64,000 nt of DNA from a virus (taxonomy: Duplodnaviria; Heunggongvirae; Uroviricota; Caudoviricetes): IMG/VR virus record IMGVR_UViG_3300042890_003920; one strand, given 5' to 3'. Position 1 is the stretch's first letter. Each line of letters starts with the position of its first letter. The position numbers and the translations under genes are program-made. Below are positions 267 through 63,934 of the stretch, piece by piece. The notes below the pieces were generated by a model. It worked only from the letters and a program-made list of their open reading frames with translations. It made no database searches and had not been told where the DNA came from.

Positions 267-2075
267 TTAGTTATATACTCTTATTTCGATTGGAGTTCTT
301 AATATTAAATCGTCTGCACCAGTACTACTCTGATTAGTTGCTATATATATATCATTAGAAGTAGTGTCTTCATTATCAACATAAAAGTCATAATCATTGA
401 TAGCCCAATGATTTTTACAAAAGAACACTACGGTTTTTAATAAAGGAAATCCACCAGTACTACTTAAAAAATATAAACCGGGAGAGTCTCTATTCCAAAC
501 GGGAGTAAAACCTAAAGTATTTTCTAACACAGAGGCTGTTGGTGATGCTGTACCACTCTGTGTTAATATAGCGGTATAAACTTTATATTTTGGTGCATAA
601 GCCGTAGTTTGAACCGAATTATCTGGGAATGTTATACTTCCAGTTGTACCAAATACCCAGTTTTCAGGTCCATCATTATCACCAGTTTGTATAGTAACAG
701 TTCCATTATCAGCAATCACTCTACCACTCTGATAACGAATTATTTCTATATCTATTCCAGTTATAGCCAAACTCGCAGTTGGTGCATTCTGGTCCACGGT
801 TAAAACTATTGGGTTTGACTGGACCTTATTCGTGATATTTAGGCTTACTGCTGTAGTTGGATCGTAAAACACTGTAAATATGTCTGTTGCTACTTGATAA
901 CCGTTTATGAAATTTACTAGAGTTGAATCTGGATTAGTAATAGTTATCAGATTGCCAGACCATGTAGCAGAATCATAGTTAGATCCTACAGAGCAACTTG
1001 CAGAATCTTGAGTGTATAAATTCTTTGAATTTATTTGTACTGTTTTACTAGTGTCACTAACTTTTAAGTTATTATCTTCACCACCAATGAATAGATCAGT
1101 TGCACTATCATCGATAGGACCACCTGCACGAATATGTATATGATTAGGACTTCCTTCAGTAGGATCTAATATAATGTATTGGTCAGTTTCTAAAGAAGAA
1201 TCTGGTTTTAATACTATTATTGGACCAAGACCAAGATTGACTGATTCTATTTGACTACCATTAGAATTTATAGCACCAGTAATATTCACATCACCATCTA
1301 CATCTAAAGCTACTGATGGATTGGTTGTTCCTATACCTATCTTACCATCATTAGTAATTCTCATTCTTTCATCACCATCAGTTTGCACGATTACGTTTCC
1401 TCCCGCGGTGCCTCCACCTCCTGCGTTTATAACGATATTACCACCAGTATTAGCTCCGTAACCAGATTCAATGTATACTTCACCACCATAACCATTATTA
1501 CTTTGTCCTGCATATATTTCAACAAAACCACCATCACCTGTATCTGTGTATCCACCTCTTATCTTAACTGTACCTCCTTCTGAGATACCTTCTCCTGCAT
1601 CAACTTTAATATCTCCACCATTTTGTCCTTTACCGGCCCATAGGTAAATGTCTCCACCTTCGCCACTGTAGGTAAGTCCATTTTGATAACTATCACCACC
1701 AGATATGACTAATCTTTCAACGGTCGGAGCAGATCCTGTTCCATCTTGAGTTGATATGATTTTTTGGTATACACTTCCTTTTTCAAATTGAAGGTTATCT
1801 CCGCTTCCTGTTCTTTGGTTACCTGGTAAGAATGGAAAACTAATTGCACCGGTTGTACCAAACCCTGCAGGTCCTGTAGCACCTTGTGGTCCAGTAGGTC
1901 CTTGAGGTCCTGTAGCACCATTTATACCAGAAGGTCCTGTAGCACCGGCAGGTCCAGTAGCACCAGAACCAGAGTTTGTTAAACCAGCTAACTGATCTTC
2001 TAAATAGTGAAAGTTGTTATCCATTTGAGCAACTGATAATGCACCGTCTTGTTCTGATCTATATGTAATACCCAT
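267..2075 (-). CDS. collagen-like (GxxGxxG) repeat fibre/tail-fibre-like protein, 602 aa
   Basis: long ORF; collagen triplet repeats GATGPAGATGPSGINGATGPQGPTGPQG near N-terminus then Gly/Thr/Asn-rich beta-rich body. Confidence 0.7.
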   Translation of the reverse strand: MGITYRSEQDGALSVAQMDNNFHYLEDQLAGLTNSGSGATGPAGATGPSGINGATGPQGPTGPQGATGPAGFGTTGAISFPFLPGNQRTGSGDNLQFEKGSVYQKIISTQDGTGSAPTVERLVISGGDSYQNGLTYSGEGGDIYLWAGKGQNGGDIKVDAGEGISEGGTVKIRGGYTDTGDGGFVEIYAGQSNNGYGGEVYIESGYGANTGGNIVINAGGGGTAGGNVIVQTDGDERMRITNDGKIGIGTTNPSVALDVDGDVNITGAINSNGSQIESVNLGLGPIIVLKPDSSLETDQYIILDPTEGSPNHIHIRAGGPIDDSATDLFIGGEDNNLKVSDTSKTVQINSKNLYTQDSASCSVGSNYDSATWSGNLITITNPDSTLVNFINGYQVATDIFTVFYDPTTAVSLNITNKVQSNPIVLTVDQNAPTASLAITGIDIEIIRYQSGRVIADNGTVTIQTGDNDGPENWVFGTTGSITFPDNSVQTTAYAPKYKVYTAILTQSGTASPTASVLENTLGFTPVWNRDSPGLYFLSSTGGFPLLKTVVFFCKNHWAINDYDFYVDNEDTTSNDIYIATNQSSTGADDLILRTPIEIRVYN

Positions 2076-6254: not shown

Positions 6255-6551
6255 TTAATTAAAGCAGATATAATTACCTACATAATATCTATTAAAAGTT
6301 TGAGGATCGATATAAACCGTTATAAATGTACCATTCTGATTTATATCAAATGAATATTGAGTGTTTCCATTATTTCTTTTAGAAGCGATTAAGCCACAAC
6401 CATAATATCTTTCAGTATAATTTGGATATAAAAATCCAATATTGTAATAAACTGGATTTATATAATTTGGAATTTGATAATTTGGAATTGGTTCTACAAC
6501 ACATCCACTTAATGTAAATGATAGTACAATTGCTAATATAATTTTTTTCAT
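6255..6551 (-). CDS. lipoprotein (signal peptide MKKIILAIVLSFTLSGC)
   Basis: lipobox-like LSGC, Tyr/Asn-rich mature part. Confidence 0.55.
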   Translation of the reverse strand: MKKIILAIVLSFTLSGCVVEPIPNYQIPNYINPVYYNIGFLYPNYTERYYGCGLIASKRNNGNTQYSFDINQNGTFITVYIDPQTFNRYYVGNYICFN

Positions 6552-7786: not shown

Positions 7787-8113
7787 TTACTTAGATTTTT
7801 TAATCACTATGATGGAATCATTCTCAGATATAACTGATTCTACATTGATAGTTGTTGGTGTTCCCTTATTTACAAGTATTACTGATTGTTGGTGTTTACC
7901 TGATTGATAAGTTGTAGAAACAACTTGGTTATTTAGAATACCTACTTTTACATATTCATTATCACCACAAGATACTCTATAGACTTTAAGTCCTTTTAGT
8001 TCTGCTGGTAAGGTTGGTTCGTCACCAGTTAGTCTTTGACTGGTTACACCTTTATCTTCACAGGAAATTGTTAGTAGTGCGATACAGAATAGGATTGTTA
8101 AGATTTTTTTCAT
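7787..8113 (-). CDS. lipoprotein (MKKILTILFCIALLTISCEDKG)
   Basis: Bacteroidota-type lipoprotein signal peptide. Confidence 0.55.
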   Translation of the reverse strand: MKKILTILFCIALLTISCEDKGVTSQRLTGDEPTLPAELKGLKVYRVSCGDNEYVKVGILNNQVVSTTYQSGKHQQSVILVNKGTPTTINVESVISENDSIIVIKKSK

Positions 8114-13749: not shown

Positions 13750-15000
13750 ATGATACAATCTATAATAGGAACAAGTTTTACCGGAGGTTATAATCCACCT
13801 TTACCATTTGACATAACTGCTAACTGGAGTTTGACAACACCTGCTGTTGTAGATGAGGTATCTTTTAAAACTTTTCTAGAAAGTGGTGAAGATGGAGATG
13901 ATGAGACAAATGAGTTAACAGGTGTAGTCATTACTGACTTCTTACTTGAAGGAAACAGGTTAACTTGTAATCTTTCTGCTAGTGGTTATAATTTTTACCT
14001 TAGTTATACAGAAGTTTCAGTTGTAAATAGTATAGGTAATATTGTAGGATTAGAAAATTTGAATTTAAGTGTTAATCAAATAACATCATTCGATCCCTCT
14101 ATTGCATTACCTAGTTCATTACTTAGTTTAGCTTTAGGTGTCAATCAAATAACATCATTCGATCCCTCTATTGCTTTACCTAGCAGTTTACAACAATTAA
14201 GTTTAAGTGATAATCAATTAACATCATTTGATCCCTCTATTACTTTGCCTAGCAGTTTACAACAATTAAGTTTAAGTGATAATCAATTAACATCATTTGA
14301 TCCCTCTATTGCTTTACCTAATTCATTGTTAGAATTAAGTTTAAGTTATAATCAAGTATCGATGAACTTTACCCCAAGTTTACCATTACCCAGTTCATTA
14401 CAATATTTAAGCTTGGATAATTCTAATATAGTTACATTTGATCCAGCATATGATTTGCCTAGCAGTTTACAACAATTAAGTTTAAGTGATAATCAAATAG
14501 TGAATTTTACTCCAAGTAACTCGCTTGGGGGTGGATTACAATATTTAGATTTAAGTGATAATCAAATAGTAACATTTGATCCTGTTGCAGCATTACCAAG
14601 TTCATTACAATCAATATTCTTAAACCGCAATCAAATTGTGACATTTGATCCCACTATAGCTTTACCTACTGGATTAACAAGTTTAGATTTAACTGGTAAT
14701 CAAATTGTGACATTTGATCCCACTATAGCTTTACCTACTGGATTATTATACTTACAATTAGCGGATAATCAAATTGTTACATTTGATCCTAGCATTACGT
14801 TACCAAATTCATTAATTGTTTTAAATTTAGTTAATAATCAAATGACAACAGCTGGTTATACTGCATCTGAACCATGGGCAAATGCTATGTCTGTGATTCC
14901 TGGGAGAGGTAGTGTATATTTTGGTGCTAATCCAAATTCTGTAAGTGGAACAAATCTTGGAACAATATTACAATCTAAAGGTTGGAGTGTAAACGTATAA
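13750..15000 (+). CDS. leucine-rich-repeat protein (about 24-aa LRR units, L..L.LS.NQITSFDPS)
   Basis: about ten tandem LRR units encoded by 72-bp DNA repeats 14070..14830; N-terminus MIQSIIGTSFTGGYNP shared with next gene. Confidence 0.65.
   Translation: MIQSIIGTSFTGGYNPPLPFDITANWSLTTPAVVDEVSFKTFLESGEDGDDETNELTGVVITDFLLEGNRLTCNLSASGYNFYLSYTEVSVVNSIGNIVGLENLNLSVNQITSFDPSIALPSSLLSLALGVNQITSFDPSIALPSSLQQLSLSDNQLTSFDPSITLPSSLQQLSLSDNQLTSFDPSIALPNSLLELSLSYNQVSMNFTPSLPLPSSLQYLSLDNSNIVTFDPAYDLPSSLQQLSLSDNQIVNFTPSNSLGGGLQYLDLSDNQIVTFDPVAALPSSLQSIFLNRNQIVTFDPTIALPTGLTSLDLTGNQIVTFDPTIALPTGLLYLQLADNQIVTFDPSITLPNSLIVLNLVNNQMTTAGYTASEPWANAMSVIPGRGSVYFGANPNSVSGTNLGTILQSKGWSVNV
14070..14830 (+). repeat. 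tandem about 72-bp coding repeats (LRR units)
   Basis: repeated …aatcaaataacatcattcgatccctctattgctttacctag… blocks. Confidence 0.7.
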
Positions 15001-21441: not shown

Positions 21442-21610
21442 TTATACCTACATAGTAACCTTTAAAGCTACTTTCTTCAATAAGGTTCTCTGTAACTAAC
21501 CTTTCTATTTGTTGTTTAGTTGATTGCATATCCTCTTTGGTGATATAAGAACTTATATAAGTTATATGGGTTGGTAGCTTTAAATGTTTTATTAGAACTT
21601 CATCTTTCAT
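21428..21610 (-). CDS. hypothetical small protein
   Basis: ORF 60 aa overlapping rpiB stop. Confidence 0.35.
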   Translation of the reverse strand: MKDEVLIKHLKLPTHITYISSYITKEDMQSTKQQIERLVTENLIEESSFKGYYVGIIKEV

Positions 21611-22038
21611 TATCTATCAATCTTAGCAATTCTATCTAAATGTCTTCCACCTTCAAATCCTGTATTGATGAATTCATCTACACATTCAAACGCAGTTTCA
21701 TCAGAGATATATCTTGCTGGTAAAGTAAGTATATTCGCATCATTATGTAATCTAGCCATATTAGCTATCTCTGCGCTCCAACAAACCGCTGATCTAACAC
21801 CAGACCATTTATTGGCGGTCATACTGATACCATTACCGGAACCACAGATTAGGATACCGAAGTCACAATTTTGATTGGTAACATCATTGGCAACTGCGTG
21901 AGCGAAGTCTGGATAGTCACATCGTTCTTCTGAGTGACAACCAAAGTCATTTACTTCGATATTTTTGGTGGTTAGATATTGTTTAACCTTTTCTTTAAGT
22001 TCGTATGCTGCGTGGTCGCAACCGATAGATATTTTCAT
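21610..22038 (-). CDS. rpiB: ribose-5-phosphate isomerase B (RpiB/LacAB family)
   Basis: MKISIGCDHAAYELKEKV…GILICGSGNGISMTANKW… typical RpiB signature, 142 aa. Confidence 0.85.
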   Translation of the reverse strand: MKISIGCDHAAYELKEKVKQYLTTKNIEVNDFGCHSEERCDYPDFAHAVANDVTNQNCDFGILICGSGNGISMTANKWSGVRSAVCWSAEIANMARLHNDANILTLPARYISDETAFECVDEFINTGFEGGRHLDRIAKIDR

Positions 22039-23218: not shown

Positions 23219-24109
23219 TTACTTATTTATAAAATTTTTCATTTTCCAAGCTTCCAATGTATTTAGAATCAATCCCGATATAGTCATTGGTCCAACACCT
23301 CCAGGTACTGGAGTTATTCTAGCTTTCTTTACAATTTCTTCATAGTCACAATCACCTACTAGTTTACCATTATCTAGTTTATTGATACCAACATCAATCA
23401 CAACTGCACCTTCTTTAATCATATCTGCTGTTACTAAATTAGGTTTACCAACTGCTACAATAACAATATCTGCTTTTAAACACTCTTCATTTAGAAGCAA
23501 CTTAGGTGTATTTATATCACACGTGGTTACTGTTGATCTTCCAATGTTAAAATCATTAGATAACATAATAGAGATAGGTTTACCAACGTGATTTGATTTC
23601 CCTATAACAACGACATGTTTTCCTTTTGTTTCAATTTGGTAATACTCTAGAAGTTTCAGAATACCATAAGCGGTGGCGGGTCTCATTGATTTTTGACCTA
23701 AACACATTTTACCAAAGTTAAGTGGATGAAAACCATCAATATCTTTGTAAGCACTTATTTCATTGATAATTGGTTCAGGTCGGATATGATTAGGTAGTGG
23801 TAGTTGAACTATGAATCCATCGTGGTGAGATTTATTTAGATTTTTGACTTCTAGTAATAAATCATACTCGGATATAGTTTCATCAAATCTAATTAGGTTG
23901 TAGTTGATGTTAGCGGATTCACAAGCTTTTAATTTGGCTTTGACATATGATTCGGATGCGGGGTTATTACCGACAAGAATGATTGCTATACTAGGTTTAG
24001 CAATTTTATATCCTAATCTGATTTTAGATTCATTTATATGTTCGTCAACTGACTCTTTAATTTGGTTGATAATTTTATCTGCTACTAGTTTGCCGTTTAA
24101 TCTATTCAT
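23219..24109 (-). CDS. folD: bifunctional methylenetetrahydrofolate dehydrogenase/methenyl-THF cyclohydrolase FolD
   Basis: PSIAIILVGNNPASESYVKAK…GFHP.N.GK…VVVIGKSNHVGKP…PVPGGVGPMT signature, 296 aa. Confidence 0.85.
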   Translation of the reverse strand: MNRLNGKLVADKIINQIKESVDEHINESKIRLGYKIAKPSIAIILVGNNPASESYVKAKLKACESANINYNLIRFDETISEYDLLLEVKNLNKSHHDGFIVQLPLPNHIRPEPIINEISAYKDIDGFHPLNFGKMCLGQKSMRPATAYGILKLLEYYQIETKGKHVVVIGKSNHVGKPISIMLSNDFNIGRSTVTTCDINTPKLLLNEECLKADIVIVAVGKPNLVTADMIKEGAVVIDVGINKLDNGKLVGDCDYEEIVKKARITPVPGGVGPMTISGLILNTLEAWKMKNFINK

Positions 24110-27362: not shown

Positions 27363-27788
27363 TTATAATTGAATTGGTAATAAGTGTTCTGGTAAGTATT
27401 GTTCTGGACAAACGATTGTATAACTATCTATATTGTATTCATACTTTAATAGGTAGTTTATATCTTCCGCCTTCTTATCATGATAATTGATTATCACATA
27501 AGGAATCTTAACTTTATTATCAAGTTTGATACGTATCTTCTGAAAGTCCATTTGTAAGTATCTATATTCTCCATCAACGGCTCCCATCGCTTTGACATCA
27601 GTAGTGGTATAAGTACCAGAACTAGCGGATCCTGCAATCAAAAAGAATGATGCTGATGAATAGGTTTCCTTTGTCTCACTTTTGACAAGTTGACGTAAAG
27701 GAATTTTTTTTGTATGTCTATCTGTATAAGGTTGACCACACGAAGTTAAAAGCACTATGGCTACAAGTAAAAGGATTAGTTTTTTCAT
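27363..27788 (-). CDS. lipoprotein (MKKLILLLVAIVLLTSCGQ)
   Basis: lipoprotein signal peptide. Confidence 0.55.
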   Translation of the reverse strand: MKKLILLLVAIVLLTSCGQPYTDRHTKKIPLRQLVKSETKETYSSASFFLIAGSASSGTYTTTDVKAMGAVDGEYRYLQMDFQKIRIKLDNKVKIPYVIINYHDKKAEDINYLLKYEYNIDSYTIVCPEQYLPEHLLPIQL

Positions 27789-33024: not shown

Positions 33025-34128
33025 ATGAATAAATTAGATAAACAATACACAGACTTGCTACTAGACATTTTACATAATGGTCAAGCAAAAGGTGATAGAA
33101 CCGGTACAGGAACAATCTCAGTATTCGGTAGACAGATCAGACATGATATGAAGGATGGTTTTCCTTTACTAACAACCAAAAAGATGCCATTCAAAACAAT
33201 CGTAACAGAATTGTTATGGTTTTTAAATGGTGATACTAATATAAAGTATCTAGTTGATAATGGTTGTAACATTTGGAATGGTGATGCTTATAAAAACTAT
33301 GTCACAAAATTCAAAGAGTATTGGAGTGGAAAAGGATATGATGTACCTACAATGGAAACCTTCGTCGATAGAATTAAGAATCAACAAGGATTTTCTGAAG
33401 AGAATGGTCAGCTAGGTCCAATTTACGGAGCTCAGTGGAGATCTTGGAGAGTTGGTAAGGGAATTGAAACTACATTAAAAACTGAAGATGGTGAATCTAT
33501 ATATGAGGCAGGTTCAATGTATATTGACCAAATTGCAAACCTAATCAAAGATTTAAAAACAAATCCAGATTCTAGACGATTGATGGTTTCTGCTTGGAAT
33601 GTGGGAGAATTGGAGAATATGGTTTTACCACCTTGTCATTATGGATTTCAAGTTTATACCAGAGAGTTAGATGCAGAGACTAGATATAACATCTGGTTTA
33701 ATAACAATTATGAAACAGGTATGGAAAGATTCTTTGATCCTAACAAACTACCTGATTATGATAATACATATTATATACCGACACCTACCAGAGCAATCTC
33801 ACTTATGTGGAATCAACGTTCAGTAGATACATTCTTAGGATTGCCATTTAATATAGCTTCTTATGCTCTTTTATTAGAGATTATTGCAAGAGAAGTGAAT
33901 ATGGTGCCGGATCAATTGATTGGAAATTTAGGTGATGTTCATTTATATTCTAATCATATTGAACAAGCTAAGGAACAGATTGCGAGAAAAGGATTGGATT
34001 TACCTAGTATAATTATAAATAAAGTTATGAAGAAAGCAGATGATTCATTACCTTTATACAATATAACTGACTTTAAATTAAATGATTATAAGTCACACGA
34101 AACAATTAAAGCAAAATTAAGTAATTAA
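33025..34128 (+). CDS. thyA: thymidylate synthase (ThyA, long 367-aa form)
   Basis: DRTGTGT…, LPPCHY.FQ.Y, …FLGLPFNIASYALL…, two insertions relative to 264-aa enzymes. Confidence 0.85.
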   Translation: MNKLDKQYTDLLLDILHNGQAKGDRTGTGTISVFGRQIRHDMKDGFPLLTTKKMPFKTIVTELLWFLNGDTNIKYLVDNGCNIWNGDAYKNYVTKFKEYWSGKGYDVPTMETFVDRIKNQQGFSEENGQLGPIYGAQWRSWRVGKGIETTLKTEDGESIYEAGSMYIDQIANLIKDLKTNPDSRRLMVSAWNVGELENMVLPPCHYGFQVYTRELDAETRYNIWFNNNYETGMERFFDPNKLPDYDNTYYIPTPTRAISLMWNQRSVDTFLGLPFNIASYALLLEIIAREVNMVPDQLIGNLGDVHLYSNHIEQAKEQIARKGLDLPSIIINKVMKKADDSLPLYNITDFKLNDYKSHETIKAKLSN

Positions 34129-34131
34129 GAT

Positions 34132-34671
34132 ATGGCAAACATTATGACAACTTATGTTAAGGTAGGTAACCTTAATGAAGAAACCCACAAAAGATTTGTG
34201 GATCTATTTGAAGATACAGAGGATTTACTATCACACTTCAATAAAATATATTCTACTGAATTTTCAGACTATGATGAATTAGATAGAGATTGGATGGTAG
34301 AAAACATTGGATCTAAATGGATATCTATAGAATGTGACGACGATTTATCTTATAATGATAGTATGGATTTAGTTTTAGAAACAGCTTGGTCAGTACCAAC
34401 TGAATACCTTCAAAAGGTGGTTGAATTTATTGGTGATGATGTTGTTGTATATGGAACTTATGAGGATGAATCTTATGATCCAATCGGTGCATTCGTATAT
34501 GCAGTTGATTATGATGATATTGAGGATTATGAAGAGGTTGAATTAGAGCGTATTCATGAAGATGATGATTATATGGAATCGATGTATGATGAATTATACC
34601 AACTTCGTGATTCTTTATATGAATCATATCTTGAAGTAATTTATGAGAGAGCAAACGAAGAACAAATATGA
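34132..34671 (+). CDS. highly acidic hypothetical protein
   Basis: ORF 179 aa. Confidence 0.5.
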   Translation: MANIMTTYVKVGNLNEETHKRFVDLFEDTEDLLSHFNKIYSTEFSDYDELDRDWMVENIGSKWISIECDDDLSYNDSMDLVLETAWSVPTEYLQKVVEFIGDDVVVYGTYEDESYDPIGAFVYAVDYDDIEDYEEVELERIHEDDDYMESMYDELYQLRDSLYESYLEVIYERANEEQI

Positions 34672-35171
34672 AAAGAATACTAACAACACTTTTACTAATA
34701 GTTTCAATAGTATGTACCGCTCAAACACCAGTAACTCTCGTATTTGACAATGGTATGACTGTGGTAAATGGATTTGTAGATGATGGTGTTCAGATTATTC
34801 TACCACCGAAATATAACTTCTTTATGTATGGTGAGAGAAACATTATGGGTATTGAACAGTTTGATTCGATTGAACAATATAGATTAGTTGAGAAGGAGTT
34901 TCGGTATATGTATCAAGCTAGATTATATGGAGATACAGAAGTATCGATAGAGATTCAAGATCATCCAATGTTTGAATATTGTACTGTGATTTACTTCTTT
35001 TATGAGTCTGGCATGTCTACTAATGGTATAACAAATATGTGGACTTCGATGGGTAATGGGGATCATCATATTATTATAACGACTTATGAAGGTATTTACT
35101 ATAAAGCTTTTATAAGAATAAAAGATGGATGTTTGGTAGAACAAAGAGAGTTACCGATATATCATGAGTAA
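34668..35171 (+). CDS. secreted hypothetical protein (signal peptide)
   Basis: MKRILTTLLLIVSIVCTAQ. Confidence 0.5.
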   Translation: MKRILTTLLLIVSIVCTAQTPVTLVFDNGMTVVNGFVDDGVQIILPPKYNFFMYGERNIMGIEQFDSIEQYRLVEKEFRYMYQARLYGDTEVSIEIQDHPMFEYCTVIYFFYESGMSTNGITNMWTSMGNGDHHIIITTYEGIYYKAFIRIKDGCLVEQRELPIYHE

Positions 35172-36325: not shown

Positions 36326-36583
36326 TTGAATCTCGACAATATACAAAAGGTTATCTGTATAAAAAATACACGTGAGATTGATGGTGAGATATTTGTAGAA
36401 AATAGATTACAGGTTGGTAAGATATATGATATGCAACGTATTTTATATACTGATGATAACTCCTGGGACTTATGGAATTGTTATATACATGATGGAGAGG
36501 TTTTTATAGTACCTTTAGATTTTTTTGAGTATTTAGAACAGTGGAGAGATAAACAATTAAATATTTTATTAAATAGCAAATGA
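36326..36583 (+). CDS. family-B small protein (…LEQWRDKQLNILLNSK)
   Basis: tail motif. Confidence 0.55.
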   Translation: MNLDNIQKVICIKNTREIDGEIFVENRLQVGKIYDMQRILYTDDNSWDLWNCYIHDGEVFIVPLDFFEYLEQWRDKQLNILLNSK

Positions 36584-36789
36584 GAAAAATAATAACATTA
36601 CTTGCCATTTTACTTCTTTTTAGTTGTAAAACAGCAGAAGAAAGAATATACAAACATAGTTATACTGATTCTTGGTATTATACAGACAGCGGAGAAAGAT
36701 ACCAAGTATACCAAACTTCTATGGGTAATAAGTATATTTTAGTTATAAACAAGAAACAAACAAAAACTATTAGAAAATACATAAAATGA
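36580..36789 (+). CDS. lipoprotein (MRKIITLLAILLLFSCK)
   Basis: signal peptide with lipobox. Confidence 0.5.
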   Translation: MRKIITLLAILLLFSCKTAEERIYKHSYTDSWYYTDSGERYQVYQTSMGNKYILVINKKQTKTIRKYIK

Positions 36790-39782: not shown

Positions 39783-40043
39783 TTAATCAGTAAGAACTTC
39801 TGTTTCATCACCAGTGATTTTGTTTTTAACAATCTCTTGATCCATTAATTCATCCCATAGTGAATAGTAGTTATCAGTATCTTCTCCTTCTTTATACATA
39901 TCAGAAGAATTCCATTTGATGTAATCTTTTGCTTCTTCTTCGGACATTCCTTTTAATTCATGGTAGTCCTCAGTATTGATTATAAGTTCATCCCTTACTA
40001 TATAAGTGGTGAAGTATTCTGTTGCTTGTGCTTTAATTTCCAT
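39783..40043 (-). CDS. acidic family-C protein
   Basis: ATEYFTTYIVRDELIINTEDYHELKGMSEEEAKDY. Confidence 0.5.
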   Translation of the reverse strand: MEIKAQATEYFTTYIVRDELIINTEDYHELKGMSEEEAKDYIKWNSSDMYKEGEDTDNYYSLWDELMDQEIVKNKITGDETEVLTD

Positions 40044-40045
40044 TA

Positions 40046-40339
40046 TTAGAACATTTCTAATTGAGCATTGATTTCTTGAGTCTCATTTGTGATTTTATCT
40101 CTACGGATATCTTGATCATTAAGTTCATCTGCCAATGAATCATACATATCTGGATTTGTTGATGGCATTTCCCATGCATTAGACTCAACATAGTCAATTG
40201 CTTCTTCTGCACTCATACCTTCCAATTCTGGATAATCTTCAATGTTTAATTCAATAGGTTCTCTAGTGATAGATGTTTCGTAATACTCAGTTGCGAATAC
40301 TGCGATTGTTTTCTGGGTTGTTTCTGTTTGTTCTGACAT
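40046..40339 (-). CDS. acidic family-C protein
   Basis: ATEYYETSITREPIELNIEDYPELEGMSAEEAIDY. Confidence 0.5.
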   Translation of the reverse strand: MSEQTETTQKTIAVFATEYYETSITREPIELNIEDYPELEGMSAEEAIDYVESNAWEMPSTNPDMYDSLADELNDQDIRRDKITNETQEINAQLEMF

Positions 40340-40753: not shown

Positions 40754-42214
40754 TTATCTTTTTATTTTATAAGTTGTTATTGTATCGTTACTTATTGATT
40801 TTACAATATAGATACCTTGTTGTAGATCATCTATATTATCTCCGACAAAAACACCCGACATATCAAATATCTTTACAGAATTTACTTTAGCAGCAACAGT
40901 GTTTACTACAACAGTTTGAAATAAATCATTATATCCTTTAGTTGGTACCCAAGTATTTATGTTGGCAAATTGTATAGCATAATTTACATTTGTACTATTT
41001 GGATCTGGTATATGAAGGTAAAGCTTGTAAGTACCGATTGGTAGATTATAGTTTAGTGGTACACTAATTGTTTTAGTAGTGCCTTCTAACCATTGATTGG
41101 GACTACTGACTTCAAATTTATATTCTGTTCCTAATGTATTTTGAAAAATCAAAAAAACTTTTCTTGTTTTGAAAACATTGGCCCAACCAGTATTCTTAAT
41201 ATTTACTGTTAAAACATTATTAGTTATATTAGAATTGACCAATTCATATCTATATCCTAATTTCTTTTGTATTTCAGTAAAACATCCATTAGTTTGCCAG
41301 TTTGATATAACTGTTGGGAAATAATCTTTATTGATAAGACTCCAATTATATCTATTTAGTTCTATCATAGCGTTAGCACAATCTGTTCTTGGAGCGTTAA
41401 CCATATTTGATTCCCCACTTACCGGATTGTTTACTGTATTGGTTTGCCAATATGTTACATCAGCAGCAGATGGTGTACCATATTTTGAACTAACATTGAA
41501 TGTACCACTATCACCCCATGTTCCTAAGAAGCTGTCATTGTAAAATCCAATTCTGCCTACAAAAGTATTTCCATACATTTTTTGTTTAGCAAAAACATAT
41601 CTAACTTGTAACGGAATAGAAGAATCAAATGAACTAATCATTGAATCCATTACTTTTTTTCTATTATTCCATTGTGTAGTTGTCAATACTGTAAAATTAC
41701 CATCCCCAAATTCTGATGATCCAGTGTAGTACCATTCACCATACCTACCTATAAACCCAGCTTGTATACTAACAATGACATCTTTATTAGCATTTATTAC
41801 TGGTGATAATTGTTGTATATGTGCTAGAATTTGATTTTTGGTTGGTTGATATACTGTAGCTGAACTAGACGTATATGTAAATCTAACAATCACTTTAGCA
41901 CCCGCTGCTCTGATTCTATTAAAATCAGTTTGCATGTTAGCTAGGTATGTAGAAGTAATTGGAGTACCAGTAATGAAAGGTCTCAAAAAGAATTGTCTTT
42001 GTATTACGGTTATGTTTTCGGTAGTTCGGTAACCTTCTAAAGTTGATTGGTTTATTAGGTTATATCCACCAGATGAACCAGTAGATGTGTAATGGTAGAA
42101 TCCTACTTCAGGATTGTTGATTACTAGATTTGATGTAAGATAAGTTACATTTTGTGAGTTGATTACATTGAATGTAATTAGGAATAATATTATTCCAAAG
42201 ATTTTAGATTTCAT
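40754..42214 (-). CDS. secreted DUF4832/DUF4874-like (glycoside-hydrolase-like) protein with T9SS C-terminal sorting domain
   Basis: signal peptide MKSKIFGIILFLITFNVINSQ; C-terminus …VKIFDMSGVFVGDN…GIYIVKS…TYKIKR resembles Bacteroidota type-A CTD. Confidence 0.55.
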   Translation of the reverse strand: MKSKIFGIILFLITFNVINSQNVTYLTSNLVINNPEVGFYHYTSTGSSGGYNLINQSTLEGYRTTENITVIQRQFFLRPFITGTPITSTYLANMQTDFNRIRAAGAKVIVRFTYTSSSATVYQPTKNQILAHIQQLSPVINANKDVIVSIQAGFIGRYGEWYYTGSSEFGDGNFTVLTTTQWNNRKKVMDSMISSFDSSIPLQVRYVFAKQKMYGNTFVGRIGFYNDSFLGTWGDSGTFNVSSKYGTPSAADVTYWQTNTVNNPVSGESNMVNAPRTDCANAMIELNRYNWSLINKDYFPTVISNWQTNGCFTEIQKKLGYRYELVNSNITNNVLTVNIKNTGWANVFKTRKVFLIFQNTLGTEYKFEVSSPNQWLEGTTKTISVPLNYNLPIGTYKLYLHIPDPNSTNVNYAIQFANINTWVPTKGYNDLFQTVVVNTVAAKVNSVKIFDMSGVFVGDNIDDLQQGIYIVKSISNDTITTYKIKR

Positions 42215-43705: not shown

Positions 43706-44377
43706 TTATCTTAAATCAAATAATATAATTTCGGATTCAGTTGAGGTAACAATTTCTATTTTATCTTCTTCGATAAAGCTTAGTCCATCACCTTCAATCA
43801 AAGGTATGTTATTTATTATTACTTCACCTGAAATAACATATAGGTAATACTTACGAGTATTATTAAGTTCAAATGAAAAGTCTTGTGTGAATATACCTGA
43901 TAAAAATCTTGCGTCTTGTTTTATAGGTAATTTTTCGGTAACATCACAAAACTTATTAAGTTTATCTTCTCTGGTAAACTGATACCATTCGTGTATTGGT
44001 TCGGTATCAAGTTGATTAGGTCTAACCCATAATTGAAGATACCTATTAGGTTTATCTGATGCGTTTCCTTCGGTATGTTTTATTCCACTACCTGTGCTCA
44101 TTCTTTGTATAGAACCCGCTGGTATATCTAAAGTATTTCCATGACTATCAGTATGACGACAAACACCTTCTACTACATAACCGAATATTTCCATATTCTT
44201 ATGTTCGTGTATTGGAACGTGACCACCGGGTTGTACTCGATCATCATTGATTGTTTGTAAGTCACTAAAGTTCATATAACGAGCATCGTAGTAAGCAGGG
44301 AAACTGAATGTTCTATACGAATTGATCCAATCTGCTTTACGATTTCCTCTTGTATGTGCAGGTCTATGTATTATCAT
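43706..44377 (-). CDS. pirin-family cupin protein
   Basis: H.H…E…YV.EG…H.DS.GN…Q.M..G.GI.H.E.N.S…LQLWV.P pattern. Confidence 0.65.
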   Translation of the reverse strand: MIIHRPAHTRGNRKADWINSYRTFSFPAYYDARYMNFSDLQTINDDRVQPGGHVPIHEHKNMEIFGYVVEGVCRHTDSHGNTLDIPAGSIQRMSTGSGIKHTEGNASDKPNRYLQLWVRPNQLDTEPIHEWYQFTREDKLNKFCDVTEKLPIKQDARFLSGIFTQDFSFELNNTRKYYLYVISGEVIINNIPLIEGDGLSFIEEDKIEIVTSTESEIILFDLR

Positions 44378-47591: not shown

Positions 47592-47622
47592 AAAAAAGCC
47601 TCGAAATATCGAGGCTTTTTTT
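47592..47622. terminator. bidirectional rho-independent terminator
   Basis: gcctcg-aaatat-cgaggc hairpin with A-run and T-run. Confidence 0.85.
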
Positions 47623-47983
47623 ATTGTATATAATGTATTCTTGTTATTTTTATTGTTACATCGGTTGCTCCTTTAACTAAACAACCCATTGTAACTTGTA
47701 CTTCTTTACCGGGTTCAATTGGTTTACTTGTATCTATTGTAAATGTATTACCTGAACTCCACTGCTCATCTTTTTTTATTTCTTTAACATCACCAAACTT
47801 ATCAACAAAAGTTGCAGTCCATTCGATTGCATCAATTGTTTTATTAGAGTTATTCTTCATTGTGGCATGATAACCAATTACTCTACCGAAACTTCTTTGA
47901 GTAGAGATTTTAATTACTTCAATCTGTGCGAATGATGTAAGCGAAAATAATAATGTGAATAGTAAGTATTTAATTGATTTCAT
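47621..47983 (-). CDS. secreted hypothetical protein
   Basis: signal peptide; -7 box TATCTTTG at 48004..48011. Confidence 0.55.
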   Translation of the reverse strand: MKSIKYLLFTLLFSLTSFAQIEVIKISTQRSFGRVIGYHATMKNNSNKTIDAIEWTATFVDKFGDVKEIKKDEQWSSGNTFTIDTSKPIEPGKEVQVTMGCLVKGATDVTIKITRIHYIQ

Positions 47984-48720: not shown

Positions 48721-50202
48721 ATGATATACCCAGGAACCTTCTCTTTAACACTTAGAGAAACAGAAGAAACAAGATTATCCGTTAAGCAAATGGATGACAA
48801 TTTAAAATTTTTAAACAACTTAGCTGATTCAGGTGGAAGTGGAACATCTGGTTCTTCTGGAACATCTGGTTCTTCTGGAACATCTGGTTCTTCTGGAACA
48901 TCTGGAGAACAAGGAATTCAAGGAGTTCAAGGTAATCAAGGTGGGCAAGGTATTGAAGGTCCAGTTGGTGTTTCGGGTTTAACTTGGCAAGGTTCTTGGA
49001 GTAATAACTCTTTATATGATATGAATGATGCTGTCGGTTATGCGTCAGCTTCTTGGTGGTGTGTTGCGACAGTTAGTTCAACAGCATCTGTAATAGCACC
49101 AGATTTAGATATAACAAATATAAATTGGACATTATTGGCCGCTCAAGGATCTCAAGGCCCAATGGGTGCACAAGGTGTTCAAGGACCAACAGGACCTCAA
49201 GGTATTCAAGGACCAACAGGACCTGGAGGATCTTCTACACAAACTTATGGTATAATGTCTCTTAATACAAACAATCCGAATGGAGAAACACTTGCGTATG
49301 ATATAAATAGAATTACTGCATTGGTAACTTGTCCAGTACGTTTACCAGCTTCAGCTCCAATAGGAAAAGAAATAAGTGTTTTTTCAGAAGTAAGTAGTGC
49401 TAGTGTAACAATATTCGGTGATAGTGTATTAAGTCTACCATTTCCATTCTTAATGGGTTCTGCAAATCAACAAACAGGTGCATTTTCAATTTTTGCTGGG
49501 GAGTCCTACGTATTTACTAGTTTGGGAAATGGTTTATGGAAAGTTAATAGCATATCTAAAACTATAATGTCTGGCTCTTCTGCTAGAACAAATGCCACAA
49601 GTACCACGATAAATGCAACAAATGTGTCTGTTTTGAATATAAATAATTCAGAAGGAAATATATTATCTAAAGATTCACTGAGATTTAGAAGAGACAATGG
49701 CTCTGGAACTAATAAATATATTGATTTATTAGTTCCTACTAACATTACTAATGATAGAACTATTACATTTCCAGACGCTACAGGTACTGTTGCTTTGACA
49801 AGTGCTATAGTTACTAAATCTGTGAAAGTAACGTTATCTTCTGCTGATTTATTAGGTTTAAATACAACTCCAAAAGTAATAATACCTGCGGTCTCAGGAA
49901 AGATTATAATTCCAACTCATATGTATCAAAATTATACATACAATAGTGCAAGTTATAATGTAAGTTCAAACGCTACTATTGGTTACCAAGGATTCAGTCC
50001 TCTATCACAAGTCGCATATGCACAAGTTGGTCTTACAATTACACCGTCTACAGATTCTTTTGCTATTAATGCACTATTTATGAGTTGGGTAACTTCTCAA
50101 TCATTAGTTAACACAAACATAACATTAGTATCTTCTACTGCAATAACATCCGGTAATGGTACACTGGATGTTTATGTGACATATTTTGAAATCGATGCAT
50201 AA
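48721..50202 (+). CDS. collagen-like repeat fibre protein, 493 aa
   Basis: GSSGTSGSSGTSG… and GEQGIQGVQGNQGGQGIEGPVG triplets; N-terminus related to 267..2075. Confidence 0.7.
   Translation: MIYPGTFSLTLRETEETRLSVKQMDDNLKFLNNLADSGGSGTSGSSGTSGSSGTSGSSGTSGEQGIQGVQGNQGGQGIEGPVGVSGLTWQGSWSNNSLYDMNDAVGYASASWWCVATVSSTASVIAPDLDITNINWTLLAAQGSQGPMGAQGVQGPTGPQGIQGPTGPGGSSTQTYGIMSLNTNNPNGETLAYDINRITALVTCPVRLPASAPIGKEISVFSEVSSASVTIFGDSVLSLPFPFLMGSANQQTGAFSIFAGESYVFTSLGNGLWKVNSISKTIMSGSSARTNATSTTINATNVSVLNINNSEGNILSKDSLRFRRDNGSGTNKYIDLLVPTNITNDRTITFPDATGTVALTSAIVTKSVKVTLSSADLLGLNTTPKVIIPAVSGKIIIPTHMYQNYTYNSASYNVSSNATIGYQGFSPLSQVAYAQVGLTITPSTDSFAINALFMSWVTSQSLVNTNITLVSSTAITSGNGTLDVYVTYFEIDA
48841..48906 (+). 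repeat. perfect 18-bp microsatellite (ggaacatctggttcttct) x3.6 in collagen-like gene
   Basis: seen directly. Confidence 0.9.
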
Positions 50203-63613: not shown

Positions 63614-63934
63614 TTACTTAATCAAAGTTATCTTACCATTTTTAATATTAAACTTTACAGTTCTAACATCATCTTTAATTTTTAAAAGATAATTACCATC
63701 TAAGTGCTGAGGTACAAAGTAATTAGTTACATAACAATCACCTTTTGTTTTTAAATCATATAATTCAAATTGTACTTTACCAATAGTTTCTATTGTAATT
63801 TCACTTTTCGGATTTAAGGTTTTTACAATAGATAGTGTTTTATTTTCTAATGTAATATCATACACTTGTTGTGCTGATAATGTAGTCGATAAGAATAAAA
63901 TTACTATCGATAAAAATTTAATTATTTTTTTCAT
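63614..63934 (-). CDS. secreted beta-rich protein (signal peptide; possible CTD-like domain)
   Basis: MKKIIKFLSIVILFLSTTLSAQQ. Confidence 0.5.
   Translation of the reverse strand: MKKIIKFLSIVILFLSTTLSAQQVYDITLENKTLSIVKTLNPKSEITIETIGKVQFELYDLKTKGDCYVTNYFVPQHLDGNYLLKIKDDVRTVKFNIKNGKITLIK

What the first reader, a model, noticed from the sequence alone, without database searches (positions are those of the whole stretch)
40754..42214. Secreted hydrolase-like protein with a type IX secretion C-terminal domain in a phage-like region
It has a signal peptide, a DUF4832/DUF4874-like (GH-like) body and a C-terminus (…VKIFDMSGVFVGDN…GIYIVKS…TYKIKR) resembling the Bacteroidota T9SS CTD. This pins the host to T9SS-bearing Bacteroidota. 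It suggests a moron exported by host T9SS during infection or lysogeny, for example polysaccharide or capsule degradation benefiting phage spread or the host. 63614..63934 may carry a similar CTD.
Basis: partly seen in the sequence, partly recalled or inferred. Interest (0 to 1): 0.62.

Follow-up and report, generated by a model that had tools for sequence, protein, structure and literature searches.

The report
Phage-borne secreted glycosidase, shortened T9SS tag
A very large, uncultured phage of freshwater Flavobacterium-like bacteria carries a conserved gene for an exported sugar-cleaving enzyme whose tail is a naturally shortened version of the host's type IX secretion tag; phage-encoded T9SS cargo has been reported once before, so this is a solid but not unprecedented case.

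Summary
The ORF at 40754..42214 (minus strand, 486 aa) is real. It has a Sec-type signal peptide with an invariant Gln at +1, strong DUF4874 and DUF4832 hits, and a clan GH-A-like (β/α)8 barrel with invariant E160 and E268.

The C-terminal tail is homologous to the T9SS type-A CTD:
- 25 of 27 relatives hit TIGR04183.
- The tail profile and tail model retrieve solved CTDs.

However, the window copy scores below the curated cutoff (20.2 vs 23 bits). Its subclade has lost strands β1–β2. It keeps β3-loop-β4 (FDMSG), β6 (GIYIVK) and the terminal YKIKR.

The locus is phage, not chromosome. Copies at 49% identity or more form one 105-tip clade with no genome-collection sequence inside; every context examined was a short-ORF contig (up to about 430 kb, one with a terminase-like gene 2.2 kb away). 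The sister clade is chromosomal freshwater Flavobacterium (53% or less).

The gene is under purifying selection (dN/dS about 0.15) but mosaic, and more divergent than its neighbours.

The best reading is an exported polysaccharide hydrolase, probably still routed through the host T9SS.

ORF 63614..63934 has no CTD.

Precedent exists: Cryophage (Bellas 2020). I class it as a new member of a known kind.

The parts
40754..42214 (-). Complete ORF, 486 aa plus stop: signal peptide, DUF4874/DUF4832 glycoside-hydrolase-like body and shortened T9SS type-A CTD
   Evidence: ORF list; Pfam; NCBIfam; an identical protein, P0001, is in public metagenomes
42155..42214 (-). Sec/SPase-I signal peptide (residues 1-20, MKSKIFGIILFLITFNVINS), with cleavage predicted before Q21
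   Evidence: Sequence layout. Q21 is invariant in A1 and in 105 of 105 phage copies. Low-pLDDT N-terminal helix in the model. Q-rule from PMC5837995.
41257..42103 (-). (β/α)8 barrel, about residues 38-320 (DUF4874 plus the first part of DUF4832). Candidate catalytic Glu E160 (41735..41737) lies after β4, and E268 (41411..41413) lies at the end of β7.
40904..41256 (-). β-sandwich accessory domain, about residues 321-437 (C-terminal part of DUF4832)
   Evidence: Strand pattern in the model. An equivalent seven-strand DUF4832 β-domain is described for SIR_1591 (PMC12345266).
40757..40882 (-). Reduced type-A CTD, residues 445-486. It has β3 with loop β3-β4 (F450-D-M-S-G454) and β4, then β6 (G467-I-Y469-I-V-K) and β7 (Y482-K-I-K-R486). 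β1-β2 are missing.
   Evidence: TIGR04183 at 20.2 bits; alignments A1 and A3; PDB profile hits to RgpB, HBP35 and mirolase CTDs; tail model and Foldseek; motif definitions from PMC11285876 and PMC5445135
42248..42255 (-). TATATTTG in the 43-nt upstream spacer. It matches the Bacteroidota -7 promoter consensus TAnnTTTG and is a possible own promoter.
   Evidence: Sequence. The motif is only marginally enriched in the window: 126 observed vs 107 ± 10.5 expected, with 3 of 100 shuffles reaching 126. This is inconclusive.

Best explanation
The gene belongs to a very large, uncultured phage whose host is most probably a freshwater Flavobacterium or Flavobacteriaceae species. It encodes a glycoside hydrolase of the DUF4874-DUF4832 family.

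Proposed mechanism:
1. During infection the host Sec machinery exports the protein. The signal peptide is cleaved before Q21.
2. The C-terminal tail is a reduced type-A CTD. It keeps the four-stranded sheet (β4-β3-β6-β7) that carries the two motifs known to be needed for T9SS recognition. It hands the enzyme to the host PorV/SprA type IX translocon.
3. The enzyme is then released or displayed outside the cell.
4. There it cleaves an extracellular or capsular polysaccharide of the host or of neighbouring cells. That would clear matrix or receptor-bearing glycan, which could ease progeny escape, reduce adsorption to dead ends, or block superinfection.

Shown: phage location, domain composition, the barrel fold, invariant acidic residues, homology of the tail to type-A CTDs and its truncation, purifying selection, and the mosaic pattern.

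Inferred: Sec cleavage, T9SS use by the shortened tail, enzymatic activity, the substrate, and the benefit to the phage.
For: Phage location:
- The colinear 433-kb contig L001 and other carriers (L003 and L004 at about 430 kb, L091, L093 at 305 kb, L096, and IMG/VR contigs L005-L011) have about 40-50 short ORFs per 21 kb, almost none with Pfam hits.
- A terminase-large-subunit-like ORF lies 2.2 kb from the homolog in L003 (phrog_5989, 1.2e-19).
- The window has tail-fibre-like collagen-repeat proteins, endonuclease VII, HNH endonucleases, PNK and ThyA, and none of the ORFs of 100 aa or more that I scanned matched an informational housekeeping family (ribosomal, tRNA-related, replication core).
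- Chromosomal relatives sit among aconitase, GAPDH and DapF instead.

Enzyme:
- DUF4874 and DUF4832 hits.
- E160, E268, D145, D227, R111 and R205 are invariant in about 203 sequences.
- dN/dS is about 0.15 against L001.
- A DUF4832 protein, SIR_1591, is an experimentally active GH that disperses Pel aggregates (PMC12345266).
- DUF4832 genes lie in EPS or capsule loci.

Export:
- Q21 is kept in 105 of 105 phage copies.
- GxY is present in the last 30 residues in 104 of 105.
- The FDMSG loop resembles the essential FDMNGRR loop of RgpB, and the terminal Lys is retained.
- 25 of 27 relatives hit TIGR04183.
- PDB hits to CTDs by profile and by fold, including F. johnsoniae translocon-bound substrates 8glk_D and 8gl8_D.

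Precedent: Cryophage T9SS-tagged GHs (PMC7468147).
Against: - The window copy fails the curated TIGR04183 cutoff and Pfam PF18962.
- Type-A CTDs are described as seven-stranded sandwiches whose overall fold integrity matters for export (PMC11285876). Here β1-β2 are deleted and only 4 confident strands are predicted.
- The P/T linker that precedes the CTD in chromosomal relatives is missing.
- No substrate is known for this subfamily. Neither the phage nor the chromosomal neighbourhoods point to a specific glycan.
- The host is inferred, not demonstrated.
- No signal-peptide predictor was available.
- For distant pairs dS is saturated, so constraint on the tail rests mainly on motif retention and on the one close pair, which has only 2 amino-acid changes in 49 codons.
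Confidence: 0.55

Rival explanations
1. The tail is a decaying, no longer functional CTD remnant. The enzyme is exported by Sec only and acts in the periplasm, for example by cutting nascent exopolysaccharide or capsule as periplasmic GHs of EPS systems do. Alternatively it is simply released at lysis.
For: - The tail scores below threshold and lacks β1-β2.
- Fold integrity of the CTD is reported as necessary for export.
- Tail lengths shrink stepwise across the phage clade, from 74 to 64-71 to 53-57 aa, compared with about 105 aa in chromosomal copies.
- Tail identity (45-59%) is lower than that of the catalytic body (69-82%).
Against: - The motifs shown to be needed for T9SS recognition are kept: the loop β3-β4 Gly, GxY, and the C-terminal Lys strand. 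G454, G467 and Y469 are invariant in the 27-sequence alignment A1, and a GxY motif is present in the last 30 residues of 104 of 105 phage copies.
- The reading frame always ends right after the K-I-K-type strand.
- Tail lengths cluster tightly within subclades, which is not the pattern of random decay.
- dN/dS of the tail in the close pair is 0.18.
Confidence: 0.25
2. It is a nutritional auxiliary metabolic gene. The secreted enzyme degrades environmental, algal or plant-derived polysaccharide, which boosts carbon supply to the infected cell during the long infection cycle of a huge phage. It does not act on host surface glycans.
For: - The window also carries central-metabolism genes: RpiB at 21610-22038, methylglyoxal synthase, and FolD.
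- DUF4874-DUF4832 occurs with a dockerin in a Ruminococcus cellulosome (PMC7480376).
- Flavobacteria are polysaccharide degraders, and their T9SS exports many glycanases (established knowledge).
Against: - Chromosomal relatives are not in SusC/SusD utilisation loci.
- The only characterised DUF4832 enzyme acts on a self-made biofilm polysaccharide.
- A single enzyme without uptake or processing partners gives little nutritional gain.
Confidence: 0.13
3. The locus is host chromosome or a misassembled bacterial fragment, and the gene is an ordinary bacterial T9SS cargo.
For: Chromosomal homologs exist in many Flavobacterium genomes. The window itself shows no capsid, portal or terminase gene.
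Against: - The median ORF is about 100 aa, with almost no Pfam hits. Chromosomal loci have a median of 320-550 aa.
- Colinear 433-kb and roughly 430-kb contigs recur in independent samples.
- IMG/VR contigs carry clade members.
- A TerL-like gene lies next to a homolog.
- No sequence from the GTDB species-representative genome collection falls inside the 105-tip clade.
Confidence: 0.03
4. It is a virion-associated depolymerase (tail spike or fibre enzyme), and the C-terminal Ig-like piece is a virion decoration or adhesion domain rather than a secretion tag.
For: Phage depolymerases are common. Tail-fibre-like genes lie 6.5 kb away at 48721-50202.
Against: - A conserved cleavable Sec signal peptide with Q at +1 sends the protein out of the cytoplasm, where virions assemble.
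- There is no β-helix fold and no N-terminal particle-binding domain.
- The tail is specifically homologous to T9SS CTDs.
Confidence: 0.03

Closest known systems
Phage-encoded T9SS type-A CTD cargo of 'Cryophage' (Bellas et al. 2020, Nat Commun, PMC7468147)
   Same: A phage of a Bacteroidota host encodes glycoside hydrolases carrying T9SS type-A sorting domains. Those genes are variable or flexible between otherwise near-identical phage genomes. Here too the GH is more divergent than its neighbours (92% vs 96-100%, and 64% vs 84-90%) and is mosaic.
   Different: - The enzyme family differs: DUF4874-DUF4832 rather than endoglucanase, GH39 or PA14.
- The carriers here are much larger genomes, with contigs up to about 430 kb.
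- The CTD is shortened to about 42-55 residues and falls below the curated threshold.
- The gene forms a deep phage-only clade instead of looking like a recent acquisition.
Chromosomal DUF4874-DUF4832 T9SS cargo proteins of freshwater Flavobacterium (e.g. Flavobacterium sp. CYK-55, F. lotistagni; P0106-P0120)
   Same: Same architecture: signal peptide with Q at +1, barrel, β-sandwich and type-A CTD. They are 49-55% identical over the body, share the same invariant residues, and form the sister clade in the tree.
   Different: The chromosomal copies have a P/T-rich linker of about 40 aa and a full-length CTD (tail about 105 aa). They sit among housekeeping genes.
Streptococcus intermedius SIR_1591 (DUF4832 glycoside hydrolase of the Gram-positive pel locus; PMC12345266)
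   Different: SIR_1591 is membrane-anchored by an N-terminal TM helix, comes from a Gram-positive bacterium, and has no CTD. Sequence relatedness to the window protein was not measured here, and substrate identity (Pel) cannot be transferred.
Canonical T9SS type-A CTDs with solved structures (RgpB 5AG8/5HFS, HBP35 5Y1A, F. johnsoniae NucA CTD in 8GLK)
   Same: The loop β3-β4 motif with a conserved Gly, GxY in β6, and a Lys-containing C-terminal strand are shared. These structures are hit by the profile and are the best fold matches.
   Different: Canonical CTDs have seven strands (a 3+4 sandwich) and 59-108 residues. The window tail lacks β1-β2 and has a shortened β5 region.

Membership tests
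T9SS type-A CTD cargo (TIGR04183 / PF18962) | C-terminal domain scoring above the curated model threshold | tested here: not met
   TIGR04183 gives 20.2 bits against a cutoff of 23, E 4.4e-4. PF18962 does not hit. Relatives do match: 25 of 27 at E<=0.01, best 2e-8. So homology holds, but the window copy is sub-threshold.
T9SS type-A CTD cargo (TIGR04183 / PF18962) | Seven-stranded Ig-like 3+4 β-sandwich | tested here: not met
   There is an 18-19-residue deletion of β1-β2 and a 2-residue loss near β5, relative to full-length relatives. Models show 4 confident strands plus 1 weak one. The definition is from PMC11285876.
T9SS type-A CTD cargo (TIGR04183 / PF18962) | Function-critical motifs: loop β3-β4 with a conserved Gly; PxGxYVV-like β6; Lys-containing C-terminal strand within the last 22 residues | tested here: met
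   F450-D-M-S-G454, G467-I-Y469-I-V-K and Y-K483-I-K-R486 are present. G454, G467 and Y469 are invariant in A1. GxY is present in 104 of 105 phage copies.
T9SS type-A CTD cargo (TIGR04183 / PF18962) | N-terminal Sec signal peptide | tested here: met
   Heuristic n/h/c regions, a cleavage site NS|Q, and an invariant Q21. No dedicated predictor was available.
T9SS type-A CTD cargo (TIGR04183 / PF18962) | Actual PorV/SprA-dependent secretion in a T9SS-bearing host | not testable with these tools
   The host is inferred from the sister clade (Flavobacterium) and from the Q-rule. Secretion needs an experiment.
DUF4874 + DUF4832 family (PF16173 / PF16116) | Both Pfam models above gathering threshold, in the order DUF4874 then DUF4832 | tested here: met
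   134.6 bits (cutoff 30.1) and 152.9 bits (cutoff 29.2), at residues 34-206 and 221-418.
Clan GH-A-like glycoside hydrolases | (β/α)8 barrel fold | tested here: met
Clan GH-A-like glycoside hydrolases | Two catalytic carboxylates at the C-terminal ends of β4 and β7 | tested here: inconclusive
   E268 directly follows β7 (strand 265-267). E160 lies 9 residues after β4 (strand 147-151). Both are invariant in about 203 sequences. No residue-level superposition or activity data are available.
Phage moron / flexible accessory gene | Located in a phage genome, and dispensable or variable between related phages | tested here: met
   Phage context. The gene is more divergent than its flanks in L001 and L093, and it is the only shared gene with L003, L091, L096 and L009. 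The barrel is mosaic, with dS 0.55 vs 0.10-0.13.
Phage moron / flexible accessory gene | Compositional deviation and own promoter or terminator, indicating recent insertion | tested here: not met
   Gene GC is 0.306 against 0.294 in the flanks. No terminator lies next to the gene. The single TAnnTTTG upstream is not statistically informative. The gene lies in a co-directional run of minus-strand ORFs.
Virion-associated depolymerase (tailspike) | β-helix or comparable tailspike fold with an N-terminal virion-attachment domain and no export signal | tested here: not met
   The fold is a TIM barrel plus β-sandwich, and a Sec signal peptide is present.

The most novel reading that the evidence does not exclude
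A whole subclade of phage-borne enzymes (25 of the 105 sequences) uses a natural 'minimal' type-A CTD. It has only the β4-β3-β6-β7 sheet (about 42 residues), with no linker, fused directly onto the enzyme's own β-sandwich, and is still exported by the host T9SS. If so, the phage has evolved a compact secretion tag. That would define the true minimal recognition unit for PorV/SprA, and huge Flavobacterium phages would routinely remodel their host's surface or matrix through the host's own T9SS.
Probability: 0.3. Interest if true: 0.65.

Novelty: new member of a known kind. Interest (0 to 1): 0.42.

Why it matters
- It adds a second, independent and much broader example of phages equipping infected Bacteroidota cells with T9SS-addressed glycoside hydrolases: 105 sequences, with every context examined phage-like and several on contigs of about 300-430 kb.
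- It ties an otherwise uncharacterised huge-phage lineage to Flavobacterium-like hosts.
- It offers a natural deletion series of the type-A CTD (about 74, then 64-71, then 53-57 residue tails) that could be used to map the minimal T9SS signal.
- It gives a phage-derived candidate exopolysaccharide or capsule depolymerase from a DUF family with only one characterised member.

Tried and rejected
- INPHARED phage searches gave no match. I tried tblastn of the target, blastn of the 7.9-kb neighbourhood, and tblastn of the 799-aa and 442-aa neighbours. One call failed on the length limit.
- An IMG/VR scan with the 799-aa neighbour found no relative.
- phmmer of the full protein against PDB sequences returned only chance-level hits to Shiga toxin A at E of 0.06 or more. 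I rejected these.
- In the tail-profile PDB search, the top hits were β-propeller, NHL and WD40 proteins. These are sums of many short repeats matching the 'vkvwD' strand, not CTD homologs, so I discounted them.
- The sigma-70 promoter scan was no better than shuffles: 39 found vs 40.4 expected.
- TAnnTTTG is only marginally enriched, so it was not used as evidence.
- No tRNAs were found, so they give no host clue.
- dN/dS for distant pairs was unusable for the tail because dS is saturated or undefined.
- The identical-protein lookup returned only a 2.6-kb contig without DNA, so the window's own full contig could not be examined.
Full report
**Observation**

Pfam gives two strong, ordered hits. 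DUF4874 covers residues 34-206 (E 3e-39) and DUF4832 covers 221-418 (E 1e-44).

The N-terminus, MKSKIFGIILFLITFNVINS|QNV, has the layout of a Sec/SPase-I signal peptide. NCBIfam's T9SS type-A sorting-domain model TIGR04183 matches residues 434-484, but only at 20.2 bits (E 4.4e-4), below the curated 23-bit cutoff. Pfam PF18962 does not hit.

No curated model hits it, and a CTD HMM built from this family gives E 0.26 among 279 window ORFs.

**Is the tail a T9SS CTD?**

Homology is secure at the family level:
- 25 of 27 aligned relatives hit TIGR04183 at E<=0.01, best 2e-8.
- A profile of the tails retrieves solved type-A CTDs as single full-length matches: RgpB 5hfs (4e-5), 7pq4 and 5ag8; HBP35 5y1a (2.5e-4); mirolase 8qb1; and 8glk_D. 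The higher-ranked β-propeller hits there are repeat-summed artefacts.
- A tail-only AlphaFold model (residues 428-486, pLDDT 73) has three T9SS CTDs as its top three matches among 350,542 PDB chains. Two are substrate CTDs captured in the Flavobacterium johnsoniae translocon (8glk_D and 8gl8_D; probability 0.99-1.0, 25-30% identity). The third is HBP35. E-values are weak (0.13-0.6), as expected for 59 residues.

The domain is truncated, however. Alignments A1 and A3 show that the window subclade lacks the 18-19 residues that form β1-β2 in full-length relatives, plus two residues near β5. After the conserved GYNDL motif the tail is:
- 53-57 aa in the window subclade;
- 64-74 aa in other phage copies;
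- about 105 aa in chromosomal copies, which have a P/T linker and a full CTD.

What remains is precisely the β4-β3-β6-β7 sheet, and it holds the elements the literature identifies as functionally critical. Loop β3-β4 has an essential Gly: RgpB has F-D-M-N-G-R-R and the window protein has F450-D-M-S-G454 (PMC11285876). The PxGxYVV-like and KxxxK-like motifs lie in the last 22 residues (PMC5445135); here these are G467-I-Y-I-V-K and Y-K-I-K-R486. G454, G467 and Y469 are invariant in the 27-sequence alignment, and GxY is present in 104 of 105 phage copies.

**Phage or chromosome?**

The window has about 30% GC throughout and no tRNA. Its many short ORFs mostly lack any family hit. Those that do hit are tail-fibre-like collagen-repeat proteins, ThyA, FolD, endonuclease VII, HNH endonucleases, polynucleotide kinase and methyltransferases. 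It has no relative in INPHARED.

- A 92%-identical copy lies on a colinear 433-kb contig, L001.
- A 63% copy lies on contigs of about 430 kb that recur in several samples, with nearly the same length but different start offsets. That pattern suggests a complete permuted genome; this is my inference.
- Other copies lie on a 305-kb contig, a 112-kb contig, a 19-kb contig and seven IMG/VR contigs.

All these loci have about 40-50 ORFs per 21 kb, with a median length of 90-215 aa. Loci from bacterial genomes have a median ORF of 320-550 aa and housekeeping neighbours such as aconitase, GAPDH, DapF and YceG. A terminase-large-subunit-like ORF (phrog_5989, 1.2e-19) lies 2.2 kb from the homolog on the roughly 430-kb element. 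I therefore treat the locus as part of a huge phage, with confidence of about 0.9. The window itself contains no capsid, portal or terminase gene.

**Evolution**

In a neighbour-joining tree of 202 sequences over the catalytic body, all context-verified phage copies fall in one clade of 105 tips (with P0110 and P0117). No sequence from the GTDB species-representative genome collection falls inside it. Only about ten of the 105 tips had their genomic context examined, all phage-like; the rest are assigned by tree position. The sister clade is chromosomal and comes from freshwater Flavobacterium or Flavobacteriaceae, at 53% identity or less to the window protein. This supports a Flavobacterium-like host and a single old capture; the direction of transfer is inferred.

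Independent host evidence comes from the signal peptides. All four clear SPase-I-type signal peptides in the window expose Gln at +1, which is the Bacteroidota Q-rule (PMC5837995).

The gene's GC (0.306) equals that of its flanks (0.294), so it is not a recent insertion. It nonetheless behaves as a flexible gene:
- In colinear L001 the neighbours are 96-100% identical, but this protein is 92% identical.
- In related L093 the flanking genes are 84-90% identical, but this protein is 64% identical.
- Four other phage backbones share nothing else with the window within 10 kb either side.

Against L001, dS is 0.55 in the barrel (codons 21-320). It is 0.10-0.13 in the rest of the gene and 0-0.15 in the neighbours. 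That is a recombination mosaic. dN/dS is about 0.15 throughout, which indicates purifying selection.

**Function**

E160 (after β4) and E268 (at the end of β7) are invariant in about 203 sequences, as are D145, D227, R111 and R205. I infer a catalytic pair from this.

The DUF pair has almost no literature. The exception is S. intermedius SIR_1591, a DUF4832 protein with a β-amylase-like barrel. It is an active hydrolase that disperses Pel-exopolysaccharide aggregates (PMC12345266). DUF4832 genes also accompany Gram-positive pel loci and a Klebsiella capsule/EPS cluster, and a DUF4874-DUF4832-dockerin protein occurs in a cellulosome.

The best-supported reading is an exported polysaccharide hydrolase, most plausibly acting on exopolysaccharide or capsule. 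The substrate is unknown.

**Comparison with what is known, and verdict**

Phage-encoded T9SS cargo is not new. Bellas et al. 2020 described an endoglucanase, a GH39 and a PA14 protein with type-A sorting domains in 'Cryophage', and noted that these genes vary between phage variants (PMC7468147). The present case matches that kind, including the variability.

It differs in four ways:
- the enzyme family;
- the size and diversity of the carrier phages;
- the depth of the phage-only clade;
- the shortened CTD.

Membership in 'T9SS type-A CTD cargo' by curated criteria fails on two tested features, the model threshold and the seven-strand fold. It passes on the functional motifs and the signal peptide. 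I therefore claim 'works like' rather than 'is a canonical member'.

The main rival is that the tail is a non-functional remnant, with the enzyme acting in the periplasm or after lysis (about 0.25).

I rate this as a new member of a known kind, interest 0.42. The more novel possibility is a functional four-strand minimal CTD, at about 0.3 probability.

Noticed in passing
window 43706-44377 (-): A pirin/quercetinase-like cupin gene (Pirin 1.6e-23, Pirin_C_2 3.4e-16) lies 1.5 kb upstream of the target. It has no counterpart in the otherwise colinear 433-kb relative L001, where a 78-aa ORF occupies the slot. This is a second flexible gene in the same neighbourhood.
   Followed up: partly
window 21610-22038 (-), 23219-24109 (-), 33025-34128 (+); methylglyoxal synthase and phosphoheptose-isomerase-like ORFs not pinned: The window carries a set of auxiliary metabolic genes:
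- RpiB (1e-58);
- FolD (phrog_7320, 7e-90);
- ThyA (phrog_160, 7.5e-109; 367 aa, only 82% identical to the 344-aa L001 copy, so it is another fast-diverging gene);
- a methylglyoxal synthase (NCBIfam 5.5e-48);
- cysteine-dioxygenase-like and phosphoheptose-isomerase-like PHROG hits.

   Followed up: partly
window 34668-35171 (+), 47621-47983 (-), 63614-63934 (-); lipobox ORFs 6255-6551 (-), 27363-27788 (-), 7787-8113 (-), 36580-36789 (+): The phage region encodes several other predicted exported proteins. Three more SPase-I-type signal peptides have Gln at +1 (Q-rule), and about four ORFs have lipoprotein-like signals. All are of unknown function, and none has a CTD by the family HMM.
   Followed up: partly
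L091 11529-12383 (+): On the 112-kb phage contig that carries the full-CTD copy P0094, a second, truncated DUF4832-only paralog (284 aa, 52% identical to the window protein over 273 aa) sits immediately downstream. This looks like tandem duplication or decay of the cargo gene.
   Followed up: no
window 39783-40043 (-) and 40046-40339 (-): Two adjacent small acidic ORFs (86 and 97 aa) look like tandem paralogs, sharing an ...EDY.EL.GMS.EEA.DY... motif. They are conserved next to the GH gene in L001 (92-95%) and in L093 (84-87%). Function unknown.
   Followed up: no
window 13750-15000 (+) and 267-2075 (-), 48721-50202 (+): There is a leucine-rich-repeat protein (LRR_4 6e-31, LRR_8 2e-25) and two collagen-triple-helix-repeat, tail-fibre-like proteins. 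The 48721-50202 protein is 91% identical to its L001 counterpart, with dN 0.051 and dS 0.153, so it is relatively fast-evolving, as expected for a host-recognition protein.
   Followed up: no
L094 5581-8106 (+); L095 8152-9699 (+): In chromosomal Flavobacterium loci the homolog is flanked by another T9SS-CTD protein (Sortilin-Vps10/BNR, 841 aa) or by a second DUF4874-DUF4832 paralog, and by one or two Acyl_transf_3 genes. The locus is always between aconitase and an amino-acid permease and is not a SusC/SusD locus.
   Followed up: no
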